The translations under genes were made by a program, and so were the position numbers. The notes below the pieces were generated by a model. That model searched no databases. It worked only from the letters and a program-made list of their open reading frames with translations, and was not told where the DNA came from. Shown here one piece after another: positions 13,670 to 41,656 of a stretch of DNA of 64,000 nt. Origin of the DNA: Bacteroidia bacterium (lineage in GTDB: Bacteria > Bacteroidota > Bacteroidia > 2-12-FULL-35-15); contig JBJMLR010000011.1 of the NCBI GenBank assembly GCA_045805205.1, forward strand, positions 467,803 through 531,802, read 5' to 3'. How positions within the stretch are numbered: position 1 is the stretch's first letter; every line of letters starts with the position of its first letter.

Positions 13670-15463
13670 ATGAAAAGAGTAAACACATCGATCAGTACCA
13701 TCACCATTATTTCATCGCTTGCGTTGACATCGTTAGTGTTTTGCTTTTTCGGATGGATGTATTACGGCCGGCAAAAGACACAGCATTTTACGGAGCTTAA
13801 TTCCAGCCTGGACCGGACAAGCCATCAGCTTTCGAAAGGACTCTCGATAGCGGTGTGGAATTTCAACGAAAACCAGGTGGAAGGAATTCTTGAAAGCGGA
13901 ATGCTCGACAAGGACATCGATGGGATCTCAATTGAATATAATGATCAGGACAAAACGATCATCTCGATACTCCGGGATGGCGGTGCGCAAACGAAAACCG
14001 TAAATAAGAAAATTTCTCCCCTCAAAGATGCGCTCGTTATTCAAAATGACATCAGGTACGACGACGATATAGTTGGAAAGCTTACGATCTATGGCACAAC
14101 CCGGTTTGTATACCGTAAGCTTGAAAAAGAACTTACGCTGATCGCACTATTTATTTTGCTGCTGATCGGGATCATGATGCTTGGGATTTACTGGATACTT
14201 TATCTTATTGTTATCAAGCCCGCCCAGGCGCTCGAAAAATTTTCACTCTCGATCACCGCCGAAAATCTAACCCATGCAGAGATCGATAGCAGTAAATATT
14301 ATCGTGAATTTGAGAACCTCGGCAATTCGCTTCAAAAAATGATCTCGTCGCTGAACCTGAGCTACAAAAATCTGGAGGAAAGTGAAAAGCGGTTTAAAGA
14401 TATTGCCAACCTGCTTCCGATGAGTGTCTTTGAACTTAATCTCGAAGGGCATTTCACATTTATGAATGACACCGGGTTCAGGCAATTTGATCTTACCCGG
14501 GAAGAGGTAGAAGGCGGGAAGCGTTTTTCAAGTACCATCCATCATGATTATCTGAAAACCGCTTTCGAAGCGAGGAATCTTCTTGCAGCTGACGCTAAGC
14601 GTACGTCGGTAGAATACAAGATCCTGCAAAAGAACGGAACCTACCTCACCATGCTTTTCAATGCCGCACCTCTTTTTAAAAATGGAGTATTGGCTGGTTT
14701 TATCGGCGCAGGTCTGGATGTAACCGAGCAGCGCGCAACCGAAGCAGCGATCAATGAATTGCTTCGTCTTGATTTTAAAAAGGAGCAGGAAGCGGAAAAG
14801 CAAAAAGCGCTTGCGCTGATCGAAGGACAGGAAAAGGAGAGATTGAGGATCTCCCGCGAAGTTCACGATGGAGTGGGACAAATGATGACGGCAATTAAAT
14901 TAGCCAGTGAAAGCATCGATCCTTCATCGATCCAGTCAAAACAAAACGCGGAAAAATTCGAATACACGAAAAAGCTTATTACAGAGGTCATTACCGAGTT
15001 GCGGCAGATTTCGAGGGACCTTTCTCCGACATTCTTATACGATTATGGTCTTTTTTCAGCGGTAAACCAGCTTGTAAATAACCTGTCGAGTTTCAGCGAT
15101 GTAACGATCAGGCTGAATTCGAATATTCAAAAAGAACGATTTACCCTGCAAGTGGAGATCACGTTATACCGGATCGTCCAGGAGGTATTGAACAATGCGA
15201 TGAAATATTCAGAGGCAAAGAATATCAAGATCAATCTTCTTCTTGATGCGGAGTTCCTGGAGCTGACGGTTGATGATGACGGCATGGGCTGTGATCTCCA
15301 GATCCTCCGGCAGTTGAGCCCTCCAAAGGGAAACGGCTTGAAAAATATAATTTCACGTGCTAATCTCATTGGCGCAAATGCTACAATCGATTCTGCACCG
15401 TTCCGGGGATTTCATATCAGTGTACAGGTGCCATTGGATCGGGAAGAAGAGCCGGAATTATAG
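13670..15463 (+). CDS. Sensor histidine kinase (HisKA_3 / NarL-partner type) with a PAS domain
   Basis: Two TM segments flank a periplasmic domain. A PAS-like region is present. The H-box EKERLRISREVHDGVGQMMTAIKL is HisKA_3 type. A C-terminal HATPase_c is present (NAMKYS...LELTVDDDGMG). Confidence 0.8.
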   Translation: MKRVNTSISTITIISSLALTSLVFCFFGWMYYGRQKTQHFTELNSSLDRTSHQLSKGLSIAVWNFNENQVEGILESGMLDKDIDGISIEYNDQDKTIISILRDGGAQTKTVNKKISPLKDALVIQNDIRYDDDIVGKLTIYGTTRFVYRKLEKELTLIALFILLLIGIMMLGIYWILYLIVIKPAQALEKFSLSITAENLTHAEIDSSKYYREFENLGNSLQKMISSLNLSYKNLEESEKRFKDIANLLPMSVFELNLEGHFTFMNDTGFRQFDLTREEVEGGKRFSSTIHHDYLKTAFEARNLLAADAKRTSVEYKILQKNGTYLTMLFNAAPLFKNGVLAGFIGAGLDVTEQRATEAAINELLRLDFKKEQEAEKQKALALIEGQEKERLRISREVHDGVGQMMTAIKLASESIDPSSIQSKQNAEKFEYTKKLITEVITELRQISRDLSPTFLYDYGLFSAVNQLVNNLSSFSDVTIRLNSNIQKERFTLQVEITLYRIVQEVLNNAMKYSEAKNIKINLLLDAEFLELTVDDDGMGCDLQILRQLSPPKGNGLKNIISRANLIGANATIDSAPFRGFHISVQVPLDREEEPEL

Positions 15464-15494
15464 TTCACACGCCAAGACTTGGTCTAAAGCTTTT

Positions 15495-15532
15495 TATTTC
15501 CCCGAAATCTTCACAAGAACTTCGGGGAAATA
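15495..15532 (+). repeat. Hairpin element copy 1: 12-bp perfect stem tatttccccgaa / ttcggggaaata
   Basis: Seen directly. The partner copy is at 18373-18421. Confidence 0.7.
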
Positions 15533-15542
15533 TAATCAGATA

Positions 15543-15567
15543 GTGTCAATTAATTGACACTTTTTAA
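15543..15567 (+). terminator. Perfect 20-bp palindrome agtgtcaattaattgacact followed by TTTTT, at a convergent gene junction
   Basis: Seen directly. It overlaps the last codons and stop of the minus-strand barrel gene, about 80 bp after the kinase stop. Confidence 0.6.
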
Positions 15568-18000
15568 CCTTCCGCTTTCCTCGGCATTACTTCTCTTCAC
15601 AGTTGGATTAATTTTCATTTTACCGAACTTCCATATTATGTAGATACGAAATCTTCGGGTATCATTTCTTTCAACATAATAAGAATATTGCCCGCCTACC
15701 TGATTGGTGTTTGGCTCGTAATCAGTTCTAAATACATCAAATAAACTTAACGATATATCCAATTTTTTATCGATTATAGTTTTAGAAACAGTAATACTTG
15801 CATCACCAACCGGATAATAATATTGCACACCCTCTTTAAAACCGGAGCTATAAAAACCCTGCAGTTGTAGTTTAAATTTTTTCGGGAGAGCAAATTCAAA
15901 CGTAAAATTGGTCATGAACTGAAAAGTTTCTGAGTTAGCCGTGGTTCCATTTACACTTCCTTTAAAATTTCGATACATGCCAACGTTATACAAATTAAAG
16001 CTGAACCATTTAATTTGTTTTTGTAAAAAAAGACTTAATGATGCATTGTTGCGTTGCGGATAATTAAATACAGTGTCTATCGTTACATTTGTTCTCGGAT
16101 TTCCATAAGAATAATAATATATCATATTATTTGTTTGCTGGTAAGCTGCGCTCACTGTAATAAAATTGTCAAAAGTATAATCTAAGTTCAGGTAGTGGCT
16201 GTATTGTGGCTTTAGGATTGGATTTCCTGTGCCTTTGCTAAAAGGATCATTAAACACAGTTGCCGGATTCATCTGATCGTAACTAGGTCTGTCAATCCGA
16301 TAGCTGTAATTTGCCAGAAGGCTGTTTTTTTTATTCAGTTCATAATTGATAGAACCGCTGGGAAAAAAATTTATGTAATCCCGATGTAACCTATAAGGTT
16401 TCGGCAGATTATTTGCATCAATTAGCGTATACTCGGATCGCAGGCCGGCTTTTGCTTCCCAACTTTTAATTTTTTTTCCTAATGTAAAATATCCTGCTAA
16501 TATCCGCTCATGATAGCGATAGTGATTAGAATAACTGGTATCCGAATAAAGCTGTCCGCTGGAAGGATCAGTAAGCTGAACATTTGCATTGCTTCCATTG
16601 TCTACGAAACTTGATTTTAAACCTGCGTCTAAGTTTGAAGATTTTTTGAACTCTTTTGTGAAATCAAGATTTTGAGTGTAAATATTAAAGTTGTTATTTA
16701 TAGTTGAACCAAACCGATTGATGGGCAACACCTCAAGGTTTGTATTATTGTAATAGTGGTTTGTGGTAAATCGTGAAAATTGCTCATTATAGTTAGTATA
16801 ATCAGTCGAGAATTGAACTTGTGTGAGAGAGTCGAGTTTATGTGTGGCACTTAAAATTACTGAGGGATTAAAAATAGTTTGCTGGGTACCAATATTGAAC
16901 TTAATGTAATTATATGCATACGGATTTCCGCCTATAATATCTTCCTGCGCGTTTTCCTGATTTGTTATCGTACCTGAACTGCCATTTACATTGAGCTCTA
17001 TACTCGTTTTTTCGTTTACATCATATTCTATGCCTCCATTCAAAAATAAATTATTATGCAAGGGTGTTTGTTTCCCCTGAGACAATAACTGGAAAGTACT
17101 TGTTGAATCTTTTATACTTCTTAAAAAGTAATTTTTTGTTTCAAAATGCAAATAAGAATAGGTAAGATTTGCAAATACGGTTAGCTTGTTTGATTTATAG
17201 TTAAGCGAAACAAAAGTCCCGGCCCGGGCATAATCCCCTTGGCTTGCACTTTGTGCAAGGCTTCCGCTAAATCCTTTTAATTTTGCTTTTTTCAGCACAA
17301 TATTTATTAATCCTCCGGATCCGCTTGCATCGTATTTTGCAGGTGGATTTTTTATTAATTCAATATAAGAAACCGATTCGGCAGACATACCCATAAGCAG
17401 ATTTATCATTTGACTGGTTGGTATTTGTTGCAACTTTCCGTTCAGCAAAAAGCGTACACCACCGCGACCATTTACAGTGATATTGTTTTGTGCATCAATA
17501 CTAACACCAGGTACCCGCTTTAATATTTCGAAAACTGTATTGCCACCGGAAAGAATATTGTTTTCAATATTCATGATGACACTACCATTTTTTAATTCTA
17601 TGATGGGCTTCATGGTCGATACAGATATTTCCCGAAGATTTACTCCTTCTGCTTTTAAATTATAAGGATTTAAGGATATTTGTGACAGGGAATCAACGGT
17701 AATAATTTGAGACCATCCTGTTTTAAAACCTGCAGTATTGAATTTGATCAAGTAATTTCCTGGTAAAATCTTTTCTTAGATAAACTGTCCGCTATCGTCA
17801 GTAATATTTCCTTTTACAAGACTACTGTCTTTTGCATTCAGAAGCCCCATTGCGCAATAAGGTATCGGTACACTTGCCGAATCAATAACACTTCCTTTAA
17901 TAAAATTTTGAGCAGGAGAGTATAAAAAAGTGCAAAGAATCAGCGCTAGGACTAAATTTTTTTTCATAATAACGAATGTAGCGCTTTTACCGATAGACAA
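15550..18000 (-). pseudogene. SusC/TonB-dependent-receptor-like outer-membrane beta-barrel protein (CarbopepD_reg-like N-terminus plus plug plus barrel) interrupted by an in-frame TAA
   Basis: The 74-aa ORF 17776..18000 (signal peptide, ...ITDDSGQFI) and the 733-aa ORF 15550..17751 share one frame (18000-17751=249). Reading through the TAA at 17776-17778 gives ...GQFI*EKILPGNYLIKFNTAGFKTGW, a continuous CarbopepD_reg-like motif. The plug region is ILKRVPGVSIDAQNNITVNGRGG. GC content is clearly lower than the flanks. Confidence 0.7.
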
Positions 18001-18054
18001 GTAGATTATTAGTCACAGCAAAACCGGAGAGTTGGATTCATTAGGTCTAAGAAT

Positions 18055-18157
18055 GTGGACCTTGTCCACCGAAGCCCGAACGGATGACTCTTGAAAATAA
18101 AAAGCCCTTCTTCGCTCTGTTCACCTTTCAGGTGTTCAGAGCTTCGAAGGGCGAAGG
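18055..18157 (+). repeat. Structured repeat copy A: gtggaccttgtccac hairpin plus gcccttc...gaagggc stem, ending gggcgaagg
   Basis: Seen directly. It is a tandem partner of copy B at 18191-18291. Confidence 0.65.
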
Positions 18158-18190
18158 AAAATTCAGTGACAAAATTTCGAACTCAAAAAA

Positions 18191-18291
18191 GTGGACCTTG
18201 TCCACCGAAGCCTGAACGAATGACTGTTAAAGAGAAAGCCCTCCGTCGCATTTCTAACCTTGTCAGGTTCGAAAAGCTATGGAGGGCGAAG
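18191..18291 (+). repeat. Structured repeat copy B: the same hairpin plus gccctcc...ggagggc stem with a compensatory t>c / a>g change, ending gggcgaagg
   Basis: Seen directly. Confidence 0.65.
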
Positions 18292-18308
18292 GTGGAGAAT
18301 ACCGGATT
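18292..18308 (-). repeat. 17-nt exact duplicate of the tRNA-Ala 3' end (gtggagaataccggatt), an att-like footprint
   Basis: Identical to 18464-18480, which is the 3' acceptor/T-arm part of tRNA-Ala, and in the same orientation. Confidence 0.7.
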
Positions 18309-18372
18309 ATTTCATGATCCGGTAATTCCAGATCTGAAAATAGAGTATCCCAAGGCAAAGCCTTGGGCTTTT

Positions 18373-18421
18373 TATTTCCAGGAAATCTTCACAAACAAGC
18401 TTGCAAGACTTCCTGGAAATA
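18373..18421 (+). repeat. Hairpin element copy 2: 12-bp perfect stem tatttccaggaa / ttcctggaaata with a 25-nt loop
   Basis: Same flanks as copy 1 (gctttttatttcc...atcttcacaa). The stem differs from copy 1 by compensatory double substitutions: cc>ag paired with gg>ct. Confidence 0.7.
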
Positions 18422-18448
18422 AAAATAGCCCACGTAAAAACGTGGGCT
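18421..18448 (-). terminator. Intrinsic terminator downstream of tRNA-Ala (agcccacg-ttttta-cgtgggct plus T-run on the minus strand)
   Basis: Hairpin plus U-tract read on the minus strand. Confidence 0.6.
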
Positions 18449-18464
18449 ATACTCTGAGTTAACG

Positions 18465-18538
18465 TGGAGAATACCGGATTCGAACCGGTCGCCTCTTCAC
18501 TGCCAGCGAAGCGCTCTAGCCAAATGAGCTAATTCCCC
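18465..18538 (-). tRNA. tRNA-Ala (anticodon GGC)
   Basis: Manual cloverleaf of GGGGAAT-TA-GCTC-ATTTGGCTA-GAGC-G-CTTCG-CTGGCAG-TGAAG-AGGCG-ACCGG-TTCGAAT-CCGGT-ATTCTCC-A. The G3:U70 Ala identity pair is present, T-loop is TTCGAAT, 74 nt, and CCA is not encoded. Confidence 0.9.
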
Positions 18539-18620
18539 TTTTCAACCGCCGAAGCTATGCAAAGGCGGTGAGGACTGCAAAAGTAAGAGAATTTTCGGAA
18601 TGCTGTACAGGCCTTAATAT

Positions 18621-19901
18621 TTAATCCTCATCACTGTTCTTCCCGAAATGAACAACAAAACCGATATAAGGAATTCCTACGAAATATTCATGCTCCCAAA
18701 GTGCAGGAGTATTAATGAAGCCGATATCGAAGCTGCCTTTTTCATTCAGGATCCTGGCACCATAGGAAATGAATGTTTCATAATGATATTCATCCCGGAA
18801 GCCGCGGCTGAACGGATCGCCTTTCACCGATACCATCCAGTTCTCAGAAACCAGCGCAAGCTTTTTTGAAACGCGGATCTGTCCGCTCAATTGAACCAGG
18901 GGCTGTGTGATCCAATCGGTTTGATGATTGCTGTTTTCAACTCCATAACAAACAGAAGCGGTCAGGTTCCGGTCGATGTTCCCAACCGTAAAAGAGCAGA
19001 ACCCAAGCCCGATCCCGAAGTTTGAACCGTTCACCAGCGGGAACAACGAGTTTCCGACCATCAATCCTCCGGCTACATATGCATAATTATTCACTGAAGT
19101 CGATACTTTCGGCCTCAGGTAAACTCCGAAAGGTCCGGCCAGGCCGCCGCCGATCGAAAAATGATCCGTGATGCCGTAATCAAATTCATTGCCCAGACCA
19201 TAATAATTATGGTAATATCCTTCTCCTTTTTTAACGGACATTGCACTCGGACTGAGCAGGTATAAAGTAGAAACCGGGTTGCGGAACCATACCTTTCCTA
19301 CCTTGTCAACCGTACCATCCAGCGGTTTGGTAGATTTCACTTTTCCATTGTCGATCTTCAGCACGCCGAGGTTCTGCGTCTGAACAATAAATCCATTTTC
19401 ATCTTTGCTCAGGATCTTGCCGGAGATGATCGTTCCGTCGCGCAGCGTGATCACCCAGTTTTCCGAGCCATATTCTTTTTCAAGCGTGGCGATGTTCTTA
19501 CGATCGATCGTTCGTTCCCCGATATTATCGTCGAGGAATATGACCTCCCGCGGACTTTCCTTTACAACAACTCCTTTCAGCTTTGTCCCGTCGGTGAGCG
19601 TCATCACATATCTTGTTTTGACCTCTTTACTCACGGTGGCTGCAGCTTTTATGCTTTCCGGTGTGTTCTGGAAATTTTCGGTCATGCCGTTGGAATACTT
19701 CACAGACTTGATCTCGCTTCGCTTTTCGGTATAAACAGGTCCGTCCGCCAGATCGGCTCGCTTGTATTTGATCTCATTCTGAGAGATCTCGATCACGCGT
19801 CCAACAATAACCGAATTGTCTTTACGGAAAATGCTGTCCTGGGCGAGAGAAGGTACTATTCCTGCAAACAGGAACAGCAAGGGAAGGAGTCTTTTCATCA
19901 T
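18621..19901 (-). CDS. Hypothetical secreted / outer-membrane-associated protein
   Basis: 426-aa ORF with a signal peptide (MMKRLLPLLFLFAGIVPSLAQ) and a Gly/aromatic-rich C-terminal half. Confidence 0.5.
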   Translation of the reverse strand: MMKRLLPLLFLFAGIVPSLAQDSIFRKDNSVIVGRVIEISQNEIKYKRADLADGPVYTEKRSEIKSVKYSNGMTENFQNTPESIKAAATVSKEVKTRYVMTLTDGTKLKGVVVKESPREVIFLDDNIGERTIDRKNIATLEKEYGSENWVITLRDGTIISGKILSKDENGFIVQTQNLGVLKIDNGKVKSTKPLDGTVDKVGKVWFRNPVSTLYLLSPSAMSVKKGEGYYHNYYGLGNEFDYGITDHFSIGGGLAGPFGVYLRPKVSTSVNNYAYVAGGLMVGNSLFPLVNGSNFGIGLGFCSFTVGNIDRNLTASVCYGVENSNHQTDWITQPLVQLSGQIRVSKKLALVSENWMVSVKGDPFSRGFRDEYHYETFISYGARILNEKGSFDIGFINTPALWEHEYFVGIPYIGFVVHFGKNSDED

Positions 19902-23950: not shown

Positions 23951-24883
23951 ATGGCTAAAAAAGCGCAAAAAGGTAAGGCAGCGAAAAAACCGGCAGCAAA
24001 GAAAACTGTAAAAAAGGCAGCACCTAAAAAGGCATCTAAGCCTGCTAAAAAAGCCGCACCTAAAAAAGCAGCAAAGAAAGCAGCTCCTAAAAAGGCTTCA
24101 AAACCAACGAAGAAAGTGGTAAAGAAGGCTGCAAAACCTGTAAAAAAAGCAGTAGCGAAAAAGCCGTTAAAAAAAGCCGCTCCTAAAAAAGCCGCTAAAA
24201 AGGTGGTTGCAAAAAAGGCAGCTAAGCCGGTAAAAAAGCCGGTTGCTAAAAAGGCGATAAAGCCAGCTCCGGCTGTGAAGCCAGCTGCTAAAAAGCCTGA
24301 AGCGAAGGCTCCTGCAAAACCGATCGCAGCCGTTGCAAAACCGGCGCCGGTTGCAAAAAAGGCCGAGCCAGTCGCAAAAAAGAAGAAATACGATTCTCTG
24401 ATGGATGACGAGTATAGCTCGGATGAAGCGCCGATGGTAGTGGAATACAAAACACCATCGATCCGCAAGCCAATGGGCCCTGCTCCTAAACCGCATATCA
24501 ATACCGATACACGCACCCGTTACTCGGATTCTGAGTTAAAGGAATTCAAAGAGCTTATCCTGAAGAAGCTTGCAGAAGCGCAGAAAGATTATGAGCTGCT
24601 GAAAAGTACTTTATCGCACAAGGATGACCACGGTACCGATGATACTTCTCCTACTTTCAAATTGCTGGAAGATGGATCCGATGTATTGTCAAAAGAAGAA
24701 ACAGCTCATCTTGCAAGCCGCCAGGAGAAGTTCATTCAGAACCTCCAGAATGCACTGATCCGTATTGAGAATAAAACTTATGGCATCTGTCGTGCAACCG
24801 GTAAGCTGATCTCCAAGGAACGTTTAAGAAGTGTTCCCCACGCAACACTCGCTATCGAAGCGAAGCTTGAGCAGAATACATAG
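23951..24883 (+). CDS. DksA/TraR-family regulator with a histone-H1-like Lys/Ala/Pro-rich N-terminal extension
   Basis: The C-terminal about 130 aa (...ENKTYGICRATGKLISKERLRSVPHATLAIEAKLEQN) resembles DksA/TraR proteins. The N-terminal about 150 aa consist of KKAAPKK/AKKPV repeats. It sits between ileS and lspA. Confidence 0.7.
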   Translation: MAKKAQKGKAAKKPAAKKTVKKAAPKKASKPAKKAAPKKAAKKAAPKKASKPTKKVVKKAAKPVKKAVAKKPLKKAAPKKAAKKVVAKKAAKPVKKPVAKKAIKPAPAVKPAAKKPEAKAPAKPIAAVAKPAPVAKKAEPVAKKKKYDSLMDDEYSSDEAPMVVEYKTPSIRKPMGPAPKPHINTDTRTRYSDSELKEFKELILKKLAEAQKDYELLKSTLSHKDDHGTDDTSPTFKLLEDGSDVLSKEETAHLASRQEKFIQNLQNALIRIENKTYGICRATGKLISKERLRSVPHATLAIEAKLEQNT

Positions 24884-25965: not shown

Positions 25966-26285
25966 TCATTTGAGGTCGTGATGTGTCTCGTTTTTGCAGA
26001 TTGATAACTCTTTAATTCGTGACCAATTCGCTTCGATCAAAGCCTGCTTTTTTGCTCTGCTCCATTCTTTTACCTTCTTTTCAAATGCAATTGCTGAGGT
26101 GGGATCAGGAAACGTTTCATAATACATCAGCTCCACCGGCCTCCGTTCGTAAGTGTACGATCTTTATGGTATCCGCAATGATGTTGTGTCAGCCGGACTT
26201 CAAGATTACTCGTAACGCCCGTGTAATATGATTTATCGGAACAAAGTAAAATATAAACAAACATGTTTGAAATTTTTCTTTTCAT
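25966..26285 (-). pseudogene. GIY-YIG nuclease family protein (YhbQ/UPF0213-like, about 105 aa) with an apparent -1 frameshift
   Basis: Minus-strand frame 1: MKRKISNMFVYILLCSDKSYYTGVTSNLEVRLTQHHCGYHKDRTLTNGGRWS*, which carries the GIY-YIG hallmark. The C-terminal half continues in another frame (RPVELMYYETFPDPTSAIAFEKKVKEWSRAKKQALIEANW...DLK*). The shift is near 26135-26145. It is absent from the ORF track because both pieces are under 60 aa. Confidence 0.6.
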
Positions 26286-41448: not shown

Positions 41449-41485
41449 AGCCCTTAAAAGCATTGTGTTTTAAGGGGCTTTTGTT
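41449..41485 (+). terminator. Second hairpin plus T-run (agcccttaaaa...ttttaaggggct ttt)
   Basis: Seen directly. Confidence 0.5.
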
Positions 41486-41530
41486 GTCCGACCCGAACTC
41501 CCTTCGACTTCTTTCAGGACAAGCTTCCCG
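41483..41530 (-). repeat. 11-nt duplicate of the tRNA-Gln 3' end (gttgtccgacc) fused to a dispersed-repeat copy (cccttcgacttc...)
   Basis: gttgtccgacc at 41483-41493 equals 41583-41593. It is followed by cgaac and the reverse-oriented gagtcgaaggg motif. Confidence 0.55.
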
Positions 41531-41544
41531 CGAAAGTATTCAAA

Positions 41545-41578
41545 TAAAAAAGCCTCTGATTTTCAGAGGCTTTTTTTC
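41545..41578 (-). terminator. Bidirectional hairpin terminator (gcctctga-tttt-tcagaggc) flanked by an A-run and a T-run, directly downstream of tRNA-Gln
   Basis: Seen directly. Confidence 0.7.
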
Positions 41579-41583
41579 TTAAG

Positions 41584-41656
41584 TTGTCCGACCAGGGCTC
41601 GAACCTGGACTCTTCTGAACCAAAATCAGACGTGTTGCCAGTTACACCATCGGACA
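41584..41656 (-). tRNA. tRNA-Gln (anticodon UUG)
   Basis: Manual cloverleaf of TGTCCGA-TG-GTGT-AACTGGCA-ACAC-G-TCTGA-TTTTGGT-TCAGA-AGAGT-CCAGG-TTCGAGC-CCTGG-TCGGACA-A. The U1:A72 pair is typical of bacterial tRNA-Gln; 73 nt. Confidence 0.9.

What the first reader, a model, noticed from the sequence alone, without database searches (positions are those of the whole stretch)
15465..18540. tRNA-Ala with a 17-nt duplicate of its 3' end bordering an AT-rich 2.9-kb islet flanked by two copies of a hairpin element
The tRNA-Ala (GGC) gene at 18465-18538 is on the minus strand. Its 3'-terminal 17 nt, gtggagaataccggatt, recur exactly at 18292-18308 in the same orientation, the signature left by tRNA-targeting integrases (an att core repeat). 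Between and beyond these lie two tandem about 100-nt structured repeats (A at 18055-18157, B at 18191-18291). Further out are two copies of an about 80-nt element, at 15468-15540 and 18347-18425, that bracket a clearly AT-rich segment. That segment's only gene is a SusC/TonB-receptor-like barrel broken by an in-frame stop. Taken together this looks like the decayed remnant of an integrated element at a tRNA, with its cargo pseudogenised.
Basis: partly seen in the sequence, partly recalled or inferred. Interest (0 to 1): 0.65.

Follow-up and report, generated by a model that had tools for sequence, protein, structure and literature searches.

The report
Stacked small insertions behind tRNA-Ala gene
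The 3' flank of this alanine tRNA gene is a pile-up of small inserted DNA pieces, including two copies of a widespread but apparently undescribed hairpin element that sits behind alanine-tRNA and tmRNA genes in Bacteroidia; it is not a classical decayed genomic island.

Summary
Its island model is only partly right.

- **17-mer.** The copy at 18292-18308 is the tRNA's former 3' end. It is still fused (..TCTCCAC|CTTCGCCC..) to unit B. The same junction follows more than 40 tRNA-Ala and tmRNA genes, plus single tRNA-Val and tRNA-Arg genes, in Bacteroidota metagenomes.
- **Units A and B.** They are solo tandem members of a roughly 100-nt two-hairpin family. Elsewhere this family often sits beside a 78-aa GIY-YIG nuclease gene. 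It has no Rfam match, and five full-text literature searches found no description.
- **The repeat pair.** The two 17-mers enclose only 155 bp (called X here). X is a cargo-less nested palindrome that gives the tRNA a new 3' end and a new terminator. It contains no integrase gene. A 71%-identical X sits at the orthologous tRNA in one distant relative and is absent from five others.
- **Barrel gene.** It is foreign by composition (GC3 0.30 against 0.41-0.58) and carries one TAG stop. It lies outside the repeat pair.

The locus is best read as serial accretion of small tRNA-targeting cassettes. The mechanism is inferred, because no close relatives were available. The second tRNA in the window (Gln) shows the same anatomy.

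The parts
18464..18538 (-). tRNA-Ala(GGC), intact. Its last 17 nt (18464-18480) are the proximal copy of the repeat.
   Evidence: ARAGORN; Rfam RF00005 at 59.5 bits; 17-mer search.
18309..18463 (-). X, a 155-bp cargo-less nested palindrome lying between the two 17-mers. Read in the tRNA sense it contains: GTTAAC; a terminator hairpin (18450-18425); a palindrome with 21-nt arms and a central AAGCTTG (18425-18369); an oppositely facing terminator-like hairpin (18367-18349); and TTTTCAGATCTGGAATT followed by an arm that pairs with the old T-stem.
   Evidence: (I1). It folds as a three-way junction at -48.7 kcal/mol, z = -10.6. It is 71% identical to L004 8736-8890 at the orthologous tRNA.
18292..18308 (-). 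Displaced former 3' end of tRNA-Ala (the distal 17-mer). With 18317-18324 it forms an 8-bp hairpin, TACCGGAT-9 nt-ATCCGGTA (18300-18324). This resembles a T arm with an enlarged loop.
   Evidence: Its junction with unit B is the canonical ..CTCCAC|CTTCGCCC...
18191..18291 (-). Unit B, a solo copy of the two-hairpin element that trails tRNA-Ala and tmRNA genes. Hairpin 1 is CTTCGCCCTCC..GGAGGGC followed by a T-rich tract. Hairpin 2 is GGCTTCGGTGGAC-AAG-GTCCAC followed by TTTTTT.
   Evidence: A profile built from 37 foreign units matches at E = 3.7e-14. Fold; terminator-like site.
18158..18190 (-). 33-nt spacer between units B and A.
   Evidence: it has no match elsewhere in the held sequences.
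18055..18157 (-). Unit A, a second solo copy of the same element. It is 79% identical to B, with compensatory changes in hairpin 1 (GCCCTTC/GAAGGGC against GCCCTCC/GGAGGGC). It is not preceded by a tRNA end.
   Evidence: Profile match at E = 1e-15.
18024..18039 (-). Tentative third, decayed tRNA-Ala 3'-end-like stretch (gAATCCaacTCTCCgg in the tRNA sense), just downstream of unit A.
   Evidence: Seen by eye. Not tested statistically, so it is weak.
15550..17967 (-). Low-GC outer-membrane beta-barrel gene of TonB-receptor type, with a single in-frame TAG at 17776-17778.
   Evidence: Pfam PF14905 at 1.6e-83 and a weak Plug match. Its C-terminus ..GRLKSVN is conserved in homologues.
15468..15540 (.). 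Second, partial copy of X's palindrome plus hairpin. It lies between the convergent histidine-kinase gene (stop codon ending at 15463) and the barrel gene (stop at 15550-15552).
   Evidence: (D2, I8). Alignment score 65 against a maximum of 46 in random window segments. Fold z = -5.6.
41483..41656 (-). Parallel case in the same window. tRNA-Gln(TTG) (41583-41656) is followed by an 89-nt insert with its own terminator (41494-41582). Then comes a displaced copy of the last 11 nt, GGTCGGACAAC (41483-41493), and a second terminator.
   Evidence: Sequence similarity to X is not significant (37%).

Best explanation
The 3' flank of this tRNA-Ala gene is a stack of small insertions that accumulated at the gene's 3' end. 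There are four layers.

1. **The distal 17-mer (shown).** The copy at 18292-18308 is the tRNA's former 3' end. It is still joined to unit B at the junction ..TCCAC|CTTCGCCC.. that is typical of a widespread element.

2. **Units B and A (shown).** They are two tandem solo copies of a roughly 100-nt two-hairpin element. In Bacteroidota this element sits directly behind tRNA-Ala, tmRNA and a few other tRNA genes that end in TCCACC. It often sits beside a 78-aa GIY-YIG nuclease gene. Hairpin 1 looks like the terminator of the tRNA. Hairpin 2 (GTGGAC-NNN-GTCCAC) re-creates the TCCAC motif. I infer that this is why the units pile up in tandem.

3. **X (geometry shown, mechanism inferred).** Later, a 172-bp cassette consisting of X plus a replacement copy of the last 17 nt entered the gene between the T-loop and the 3' end. 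It regenerated the tRNA, gave it a new terminator, and pushed the old end and its units 172 bp downstream. The most likely mechanism is site-specific recombination by a recombinase encoded outside the window, as with tyrosine integrases that cross over in the T-stem region.

4. **The barrel gene (foreign composition shown, route inferred).** It was acquired horizontally and was recently inactivated by one stop codon. It lies outside the 17-mer pair. A partial second copy of X's palindrome module at its far end hints that it arrived through an earlier event of the same kind, or through recombination at that module. This last step is weakly supported.
For: **The distal 17-mer is the old tRNA end**
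- The junction ATTCTCCAC|CTTCGCCCTCC at 18292 matches the junction found in the metagenome loci. There, 42 of 75 junction instances abut an intact tRNA or tmRNA gene. By gene type, 27 units follow tRNA-Ala and 19 follow tmRNA.
- In relative L006 the tRNA runs straight into a unit, which is followed by a GIY-YIG gene.

**A and B belong to the family**
- A profile built without the window hits only A (1e-15) and B (4e-14) in the 64 kb.

**The family is structured**
- Six compensated variants of the hairpin-1 stem occur among 43 distinct hairpins, and a GAA/GAA internal loop is conserved.

**Placement follows sequence rather than alanine identity**
- Units also follow tRNA-Val (L038), tRNA-Arg (L130) and the reverse complement of a tRNA 5' end (L089).
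- Tandem arrays occur, for example L015, L008 and L074.
- 24 of 73 unit occurrences have the 78-aa GIY-YIG ORF just downstream.

**X varies in presence**
- The orthologous tRNA, next to the same 426-aa gene, has X in L004 (71% identity). X is absent from L006, L092/L093, L096 and L003.
- The window's distal 17-mer is perfect, whereas the corresponding stretch in L004 has decayed. This argues for separate or recent events.

**The same arrangement occurs elsewhere**
- In L043 and L035 the order is tmRNA, short insert, displaced end, unit.
- In L090 and L044 a GIY-YIG cassette is followed by a displaced tmRNA end. The right-hand segment in L090 closely resembles that of the L043 insert by eye.
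- tRNA-Gln in this window has the same anatomy.
- 8 of 98 distinct tRNA or tmRNA genes in the held loci carry a downstream copy of their last 10 nt in a tRNA-like context, against 0.14 expected by chance.

**This tRNA end is used as an integrase target**
- See L121 and PMC4383910.

**The barrel gene is foreign**
-. Its homologues sit in a different genomic context and have GC typical of their own genomes.
Against: - No close relative was available. The nearest are about 63% identical in protein. No recent filled-versus-empty pair and no excision product can therefore be shown.
- The window contains no recombinase. The 78-aa GIY-YIG gene is also absent. Only a different, frameshifted GIY-YIG gene lies 8 kb away.
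- Clear homologues of X number only two (window and L004). Similarity to the L043 insert is limited to motifs (53% overall), and similarity to the tRNA-Gln insert is not significant.
- Displaced-end repeats are not a general feature of unit loci. They were found in 2 of 48.
- X is more conserved (71%) than neutral DNA should be at this divergence. That would also fit a selected function, such as a terminator or an RNA.
- How the barrel gene arrived, and why the palindrome is duplicated, remain unexplained. A tidier model in which copy 1 is a complete X followed by a third displaced end was refuted in part.
Confidence: 0.5

Rival explanations
1. Classical decayed tRNA island. A tyrosine-integrase element carrying the barrel gene integrated at tRNA-Ala. 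It later lost its integrase and most of its body. The two 80-nt elements mark its ends.
For: - The displaced 3' fragment lies in the correct orientation (PMC4383910).
- The barrel gene has foreign composition.
- Two related palindrome modules loosely bracket the region.
- Integrase elements with this same tRNA end exist.
Against: - An island should lie between the regenerated tRNA and the displaced fragment. That interval here is 155 bp and contains no gene.
- The barrel gene lies beyond the displaced fragment.
- No convincing third tRNA fragment lies beyond the barrel gene. The candidate near 15445-15462 is HK coding sequence and aligns poorly.
- The apparent GGTTAA 'left end' of copy 1 is the conserved barrel C-terminus.
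- No integrase remnant was found.
Confidence: 0.15
2. Functional RNA or terminator architecture rather than mobile DNA. Units A and B, and X, would be selected 3' trailers of alanine-accepting RNAs, acting as terminators, processing signals or small RNAs. The duplications would be local tandem duplications.
For: - Hairpin 1 covaries and is followed by a T-run.
- Units are always in the sense orientation directly after the RNA gene.
- X supplies a good terminator to the tRNA and is 71% conserved at deep divergence.
- Both tRNAs in the window have such trailers.
Against: - Units also follow Val and Arg tRNAs and non-tRNA sequence that ends in TCCAC.
- Units occur as orphans with truncated tRNA ends, far from any RNA gene: L024, L026, L060-L062 and L091.
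- Units form tandem arrays together with a nuclease gene.
- Units are absent from most orthologous tRNA-Ala loci.
- Hairpin 2 lies downstream of the terminator.
- No Rfam family matches.
Confidence: 0.2
3. Replacement of the tRNA by homology-facilitated illegitimate recombination. Incoming foreign DNA carrying a tRNA-Ala gene and its own downstream sequence (X) recombined within or upstream of the tRNA. It joined illegitimately inside the old T arm and left the old 3' end behind.
For: - This gives the same end product without an integrase.
- No recombinase is present in the window.
- tRNA genes are conserved enough to serve as homology anchors.
Against: - The same junction position (T-loop through to position 74) recurs at tRNA-Ala in two lineages, at tmRNA in L043, and at tRNA-Gln.
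- The arm next to the displaced end matches the T-stem of the target gene in both the window and L043. Random illegitimate joins would not produce this.
Confidence: 0.1
4. Assembly artefact in the metagenome-assembled genome. The duplicated tRNA end would reflect a chimeric join of two strains or loci.
For: - The source is a MAG.
- Contigs carrying the GIY-YIG or unit elements often break at this kind of repeat.
Against: - The contig is 1.05 Mb long, with housekeeping genes on both sides of the locus.
- A 17-nt repeat is too short to misdirect an assembler.
- Independent assemblies show the same anatomy: L004/L005, L043 and L035.
Confidence: 0.03

Closest known systems
Genomic islands integrated at tRNA or tmRNA genes by tyrosine integrases (Islander definition, PMC4383910), including tandem accretion at one tRNA gene
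   Same: - A regenerated tRNA with a displaced 3' fragment downstream, in the same orientation.
- The block of identity starts in the T-loop and ends at the 3' end of the gene.
- Several layers are stacked at one tRNA.
   Different: - The interval between the gene and its displaced fragment is 155 bp, not kilobases.
- There is no integrase and no cargo.
- The compositionally foreign gene lies outside the repeat pair.
CIMEs, cis-mobilisable elements: att-flanked remnants of integrative elements that lack their own recombination module (from my own knowledge; described in Streptococcus thermophilus)
   Same: Flanked by attL- and attR-like repeats, with no integrase. Such elements are presumed to depend on a recombinase supplied in trans.
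   Different: - X is far smaller.
- X is a nested palindrome that carries terminators.
- No cognate integrase-bearing parent element was identified.
MITE, REP and RPE-type small palindromic repeats
   Same: Small size, strongly folding, non-coding, found in intergenic regions, and varying in presence between genomes.
   Different: - The ends of X are not terminal inverted repeats.
- A 17-nt 'target duplication' that ends exactly at the tRNA 3' end is unlike a transposase footprint.
- Only two (partial) copies occur in 64 kb.
Elements that insert next to a short specific sequence and carry subterminal hairpins (IS200/IS605 and its short derivatives), and integron cassette arrays (from my own knowledge)
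   Same: - Units abut a fixed short motif (TCCAC) without an evident target duplication.
- Units end in a hairpin that re-creates that motif.
- Units form head-to-tail arrays, sometimes as an ORF followed by a hairpin (L015).
   Different: - No HUH transposase and no IntI integrase is associated.
- The linked gene is a 78-aa GIY-YIG nuclease.
- The hairpin sequences are unrelated to those families. Mechanistic kinship is untested.
Small GIY-YIG nucleases (Pfam PF01541; the YhbQ/COG2827-like group) and GIY-YIG homing endonucleases
   Same: The gene linked to the units elsewhere has the GIY-YIG catalytic domain (3.8e-17). Homing endonucleases also target conserved genes.
   Different: - At 78 aa it has no DNA-binding domain.
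- No NCBIfam model matches.
- No copy of this gene lies next to units A and B in the window.

Membership tests
tRNA/tmRNA-gene-integrated genomic island (Islander criteria, PMC4383910) | An intact, regenerated tRNA gene | tested here: met
   ARAGORN and Rfam at 59.5 bits.
tRNA/tmRNA-gene-integrated genomic island (Islander criteria, PMC4383910) | A displaced 3' fragment of the same tRNA, downstream and in the same orientation | tested here: met
   17 of 17 nt at 18292-18308, with 0.01 matches expected by chance.
tRNA/tmRNA-gene-integrated genomic island (Islander criteria, PMC4383910) | An integrase gene inside the interval between the gene and its fragment | tested here: not met
   The interval 18309-18463 is 155 bp of hairpins. 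Recombinase domains were absent from all 28 larger ORFs scanned.
tRNA/tmRNA-gene-integrated genomic island (Islander criteria, PMC4383910) | Crossover in the T-stem region or at the anticodon loop | tested here: inconclusive
   Identity begins at the last 3 nt of the T-loop. The adjacent arm TACCGGAT mimics the T-stem. The actual crossover point cannot be determined.
Two-hairpin element trailing tRNA-Ala/tmRNA genes (unnamed; defined here) | Starts CTTCGCCC directly after ..TCCAC of a tRNA or tmRNA 3' end | tested here: met
   Unit B: ATTCTCCAC|CTTCGCCC, following the displaced end. Unit A starts CTTCGCCC but is preceded by spacer sequence rather than a tRNA end.
Two-hairpin element trailing tRNA-Ala/tmRNA genes (unnamed; defined here) | Hairpin 1 with a 7-bp covarying stem (GCCCnnC/GnnGGGC), a 3x3 internal loop and a T-rich tail | tested here: met
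   B: GCCCTCC/GGAGGGC with ATA/GAC. A: GCCCTTC/GAAGGGC with GAA/GAA.
Two-hairpin element trailing tRNA-Ala/tmRNA genes (unnamed; defined here) | 3' core GGCTTCGGTGGAC-NNN-GTCCAC, and a whole-unit profile match | tested here: met
   Exact core in both units. nhmmer gives 1e-15 and 3.7e-14 with a profile that excludes the window.
Two-hairpin element trailing tRNA-Ala/tmRNA genes (unnamed; defined here) | An adjacent 78-aa GIY-YIG gene (seen at 24 of 73 unit occurrences) | tested here: not met
   tblastn finds none near 18000. The only hit is a different, frameshifted GIY-YIG gene at 25966-26285.
MITE | Terminal inverted repeats and a short target-site duplication | tested here: not met
   The ends of X (GTTAACTC.. 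and ..CATGAAAT) are not inverted repeats. The flanking repeat is 17 nt of tRNA.
IS200/IS605-type element or its short derivative | An HUH (Y1) transposase, or demonstrated single-strand cleavage at the motif next to the subterminal hairpins | not testable with these tools
   Only the resemblance in anatomy was seen. No such transposase was seen in the 28 window ORFs scanned; unit loci were not scanned for one.
Any Rfam 15 RNA family | A covariance-model match to A, B or X | tested here: not met
   Only the two tRNAs pass the gathering threshold. In a scan of 17900-18700 at E up to 10, the matches were weak, far below gathering scores and to unrelated families, mostly over the hairpins of X.
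TonB-dependent-receptor-like outer-membrane barrel (PF14905 with an N-terminal CarboxypepD_reg domain) | Full-length domain architecture and an intact ORF | tested here: not met
   The architecture is colinear with 803-818-aa homologues, but a TAG interrupts codon 64.

The most novel reading that the evidence does not exclude
The two-hairpin units and the 78-aa GIY-YIG gene together may form an undescribed class of site-specific mobile cassette in Bacteroidia. It would insert after the TCCAC(C) 3' end of tRNA-Ala, tmRNA and similar genes. It would re-create its own target in its terminal hairpin, and so build integron-like head-to-tail arrays anchored on an RNA gene. The GIY-YIG nuclease, rather than a tyrosine integrase or a transposase, would be the mobility enzyme. 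X-type cargo-less cassettes would be relatives that share the same right-hand end. The window would then hold two solo units and one X as fossils of this system.
Probability: 0.3. Interest if true: 0.8.

Novelty: new variant of a known kind. Interest (0 to 1): 0.6.

Why it matters
- **Island finders may misread such loci.** Tools that use tRNA and tmRNA genes as landmarks require an integrase. They would miss, or misjudge, loci where short integrase-less cassettes regenerate the RNA gene. Both tRNAs in this window show this, as do 8 of 98 tRNA or tmRNA genes sampled.
- **A possible new mobile-element type.** The unit and GIY-YIG family is widespread: at least 524 protein clusters, and units behind tRNA-Ala, tmRNA, tRNA-Val and tRNA-Arg genes. 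It is highly conserved. It is absent from Rfam and NCBIfam, and five literature searches did not find it. If it is mobile, it would be a new way for a tiny nuclease gene to parasitise essential RNA genes.
- **A practical cause of fragmented assemblies.** Many contigs carrying the GIY-YIG gene start 155-184 nt upstream of it, which suggests that assemblies break at these repeats.
- **If it is ordinary.** If the pieces are only terminators plus debris, the locus still documents how tRNA 3' flanks turn over.

Tried and rejected
- **Exact look-ups of window proteins.** None is on record, so the rest of the source contig could not be read.
- **Rfam.** Nothing was found at gathering thresholds or in a permissive scan.
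- **Viral-contig scan for X's right-end motif.** All 22 hits were chance matches in coding DNA.
- **Are units generally bracketed by repeats of the RNA gene's end?** Only 2 of 48 loci are, so this is not a family trait.
- **Is hairpin copy 1 a complete second X followed by a third displaced tRNA end?** Rejected in part. Its 'GGTTAA plus hairpin' is the conserved C-terminal coding sequence and terminator of the barrel gene. Significant homology covers only the palindrome and the adjacent hairpin.
- **Is the palindrome a common dispersed repeat?** No. It was found only in the window and L004 within about 1 Mb of held sequence.
- **Homology of the tRNA-Gln insert to X.** Not significant (37%). 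The resemblance is architectural only.
- **Literature.** Five full-text searches and two papers on tmRNA genes (searched for key terms) describe neither the unit nor a GIY-YIG link to tRNA or tmRNA 3' ends.
- **NCBIfam.** No model matches the 78-aa GIY-YIG protein or the barrel protein.

Full report
**1. Checking the observation**

All the described features are present.
- tRNA-Ala(GGC) lies at 18464/5-18538 on the minus strand.
- The 17-mer GTGGAGAATACCGGATT occurs exactly twice in 64 kb, at 18292-18308 and 18464-18480. About 0.01 matches are expected by chance.
- Units A (18055-18157) and B (18191-18291) are 79% identical and fold alike.
- The roughly 80-nt hairpin element is at 15468-15540 and 18347-18425. 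Its alignment score of 65 exceeds the maximum of 46 for random window segments.
- GC falls to 0.33-0.39 between about 15545 and 18050.
- The only gene in that segment is an OMP_b-brl_3 barrel. It has a single TAG at codon 64 and otherwise aligns without gaps at 67% identity to an intact 807-aa homologue.
- The barrel gene has GC3 of 0.30. The 29 other ORFs of at least 250 aa have GC3 of 0.41-0.58.

**2. Source and relatives**

The window comes from a Bacteroidia MAG, on a 1.05-Mb contig. The nearest relatives of the flanking 426-aa gene are only about 63% identical in protein, so all comparisons here are deep.

The 426-aa gene keeps its neighbours (RidA and IleRS), and in most relatives a tRNA-Ala(GGC) gene follows it. 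What follows the tRNA differs from lineage to lineage:
- a plain terminator in L092/L093;
- the end of a convergent gene in L096;
- a terminator and then a methyltransferase gene, with the tRNA inverted, in L003;
- a unit and then a small GIY-YIG gene in L006;
- a homologue of the window's 18309-18463 in L004.

The flank of this tRNA is therefore a site of rapid turnover, and variants without the window's insertions exist.

**3. What units A and B are**

In L006 the tRNA runs straight into ..ATTCTCCAC|CTTCGCCCTC.., a hairpin, a T-run, and then GGGCTTCGGTGGACGAAGTCCAC. This is a homologue of units A and B.

A metagenome scan with the core GGCTTCGGTGGACNNNGTCCAC returned 85 stretches. In most of them the core is preceded by the same hairpin 1, which starts CTTCGCCC directly after ..TCCAC of a tRNA-Ala gene (27 units by ARAGORN, with anticodons TGC, GGC or CGC) or of a tmRNA gene (19 units). 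Many more cases are cut off by contig ends.

Hairpin 1 was not part of the search pattern. Even so, its 7-bp stem shows six compensated variants among 43 distinct hairpins, and it has a conserved GAA/GAA-type internal loop. A profile built from 37 foreign units hits only A (1e-15) and B (3.7e-14) in the window, both in the tRNA sense.

Placement follows sequence rather than alanine identity. Units also follow tRNA-Val (L038), tRNA-Arg ending GGGTCCACC (L130), and the reverse complement of a tRNA 5' end (L089). They also occur in tandem (for example L008, L018, L074 and L076) and as orphans attached to truncated tRNA or tmRNA ends far from any RNA gene (L024, L026, L060-L062, L091).

At 24 of 73 unit occurrences, a 78-aa GIY-YIG ORF starts 10-290 nt downstream. 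L015 has three head-to-tail periods of unit plus GIY-YIG. This protein family has at least 524 clusters at 68-91% identity. Every source name among the 120 listed hits is from Bacteroidia or Bacteroidota MAGs. Many of its contigs start 155-184 nt upstream of the gene, as expected where an assembly breaks at a repeat.

No Rfam family and no NCBIfam model matches. Five literature searches found no description.

**4. What the 17-mer duplicate is**

The distal 17-mer joins unit B at exactly the canonical junction. It is therefore the tRNA's former 3' end.

The 155 bp between the two copies, called X here, begins GTTAAC immediately after position 74. It then has a good terminator for the tRNA, a palindrome with 21-nt arms and a central AAGCTTG, an oppositely facing terminator-like hairpin, and finally TTTTCAGATCTGGAATT. 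The last part, TACCGGAT, pairs with ATCCGGTA of the displaced end. The displaced end therefore looks like a T arm with an enlarged loop. X folds into a three-way junction with z = -10.6.

L004 has a 71%-identical X at the orthologous tRNA, with compensatory changes in the hairpins. The stretch in L004 that corresponds to the displaced end has decayed, whereas the window's is perfect. I take this to argue against simple inheritance of one old event.

The same order (RNA gene, short insert with a terminator, displaced end, unit) occurs at tmRNA genes in L043 (173 nt, 16-nt repeat) and L035. In L043 the insert shares with X a central AGCTTG, a hairpin, TTATTTGCAGAACGGGAA, and an arm matching the T-stem of that tmRNA. 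Overall identity is only 53%.

In L090 and L044 a cassette of unit plus GIY-YIG is followed by a displaced tmRNA end. By eye, the L090 segment ahead of that end closely resembles the right-hand part of the L043 insert.

The window's second tRNA (Gln) has an 89-nt insert with its own terminator, followed by an 11-nt displaced end.

Among 98 distinct tRNA or tmRNA genes in the held loci, 8 have a downstream copy of their last 10 nt in a tRNA-like context. About 0.14 are expected by chance.

**5. Mechanism**

The geometry is that of an element integrated at a tRNA or tmRNA gene: a regenerated gene plus a displaced 3' fragment, with identity running from the T-loop to the 3' end (PMC4383910).

Integrase elements that use this same tRNA end exist. 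In viral contig L121, a tRNA-Ala 3' half that includes the 17-mer is followed directly by a 409-aa Phage_int_SAM_5 ORF.

X itself has no gene, and recombinase domains were absent from all 28 larger ORFs scanned in the window. I therefore infer that X is a cargo-less cassette moved by a recombinase supplied in trans, or the minimal remnant of such an element.

For the units I can only infer sequence-specific placement after TCCAC. Hairpin 2 re-creates that motif, which would explain the tandem arrays. The enzyme may be the GIY-YIG nuclease, but this is untested.

**6. The barrel gene and the second hairpin copy**

The barrel gene is foreign by composition. Its closest homologues (67-68% identity) lie in a different genomic context and have GC typical of their own genomes.

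The barrel gene lies beyond the displaced fragment, so it is not the cargo of the event that made the 17-nt repeat.

Copy 1 of the hairpin element shares only the palindrome and the adjacent hairpin with X. I tested whether copy 1 is a complete X followed by a third displaced end. Its apparent left end turned out to be the conserved barrel C-terminus, and the putative third fragment is unconvincing. How the gene arrived remains open. A weak candidate for a decayed tRNA end lies at 18024-18039.

**7. Verdict**

The locus is best read as serial accretion of small cassettes that target tRNA genes. In order, it holds a recent 172-bp X insertion, two solo units of a widespread family linked elsewhere to a GIY-YIG gene, and an unrelated foreign barrel gene with one stop codon.

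Confidence is moderate (0.5). No close relatives, no excision products and no enzyme could be examined. An RNA-level function for the units and for X is not excluded.

Noticed in passing
window 41483-41656 (-): tRNA-Gln(TTG) has the same anatomy as tRNA-Ala. The gene is followed by 'ttaag', a terminator and an 89-nt insert. Then come a displaced copy of its last 11 nt (GGTCGGACAAC, preceded by a T-loop-like gttcg) and a second terminator.
   Followed up: partly
window 25966-26285 (-): A frameshifted GIY-YIG gene of a different subtype, read as two ORF pieces (MFVYILLCSDKSYYTGVTSNLE.. and ..AFEKKVKEWSRAKK..). It is flanked by inverted repeats (GTCACCCTG..GAGTCGAAGGG upstream and CCCTTCGACTTCGCTCAGGGTGAC downstream). 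The upstream flank also contains a CCTTCGC..GCGAGCGGAGG hairpin reminiscent of hairpin 1 of the units.
   Followed up: partly
L004 9480-9590 and L092 7960-8070: A non-coding stretch of about 100 nt (..ccttgatgaaaaagaaacaaaaaatcaagaaagcctgat..caagctac..aggctttcag..ccttacgcg..) is well conserved between two distant relatives downstream of tRNA-Ala. It may be an RNA or a regulatory element.
   Followed up: no
L004 9020-9045 and 9215-9250: Two further tRNA-3'-end-like fragments lie downstream of the L004 tRNA-Ala: GGTATTATTCTCCAC and a T-arm-plus-acceptor fragment, gagaggttcgattcctctctctccacca. They suggest several layers of accretion there as well.
   Followed up: no
L130 1949-2740 and 4359-5237: tRNA-Arg(ACG), ending GGGTCCACC, is followed by two units with a variant core (CGGTGGATACGATCCAC) and the 78-aa GIY-YIG gene. 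About 1.6 kb further on, a large serine recombinase gene (Resolvase plus Recombinase domains) on the opposite strand overlaps a tRNA-Val gene.
   Followed up: partly
L027 100-340 (-): A tRNA-Ala gene is followed immediately by a pseudo-tRNA copy with an altered anticodon arm. The 3' end of that copy carries the unit. ARAGORN calls it tRNA-Phe with an odd anticodon position.
   Followed up: no
units in L008, L014, L026, L040, L078, L087, L090: The 3' part of the spacer is the reverse complement of the apical part of hairpin 1 and changes with it (for example GAAGCTTTAGCG against CGCTAAAACTTC, and GTAGCTTCAGCG against CGCTGAAGCTCC). This gives an alternative long-range pairing, or an internal inverted repeat. 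It is not evident in the window's units A and B.
   Followed up: partly
window 23951-24883 (+): A 310-aa ORF whose first roughly 150 residues are Lys/Ala/Pro-rich repeats (AKKAAPKK..), resembling histone H1. It has no Pfam hit at 1e-5.
   Followed up: no
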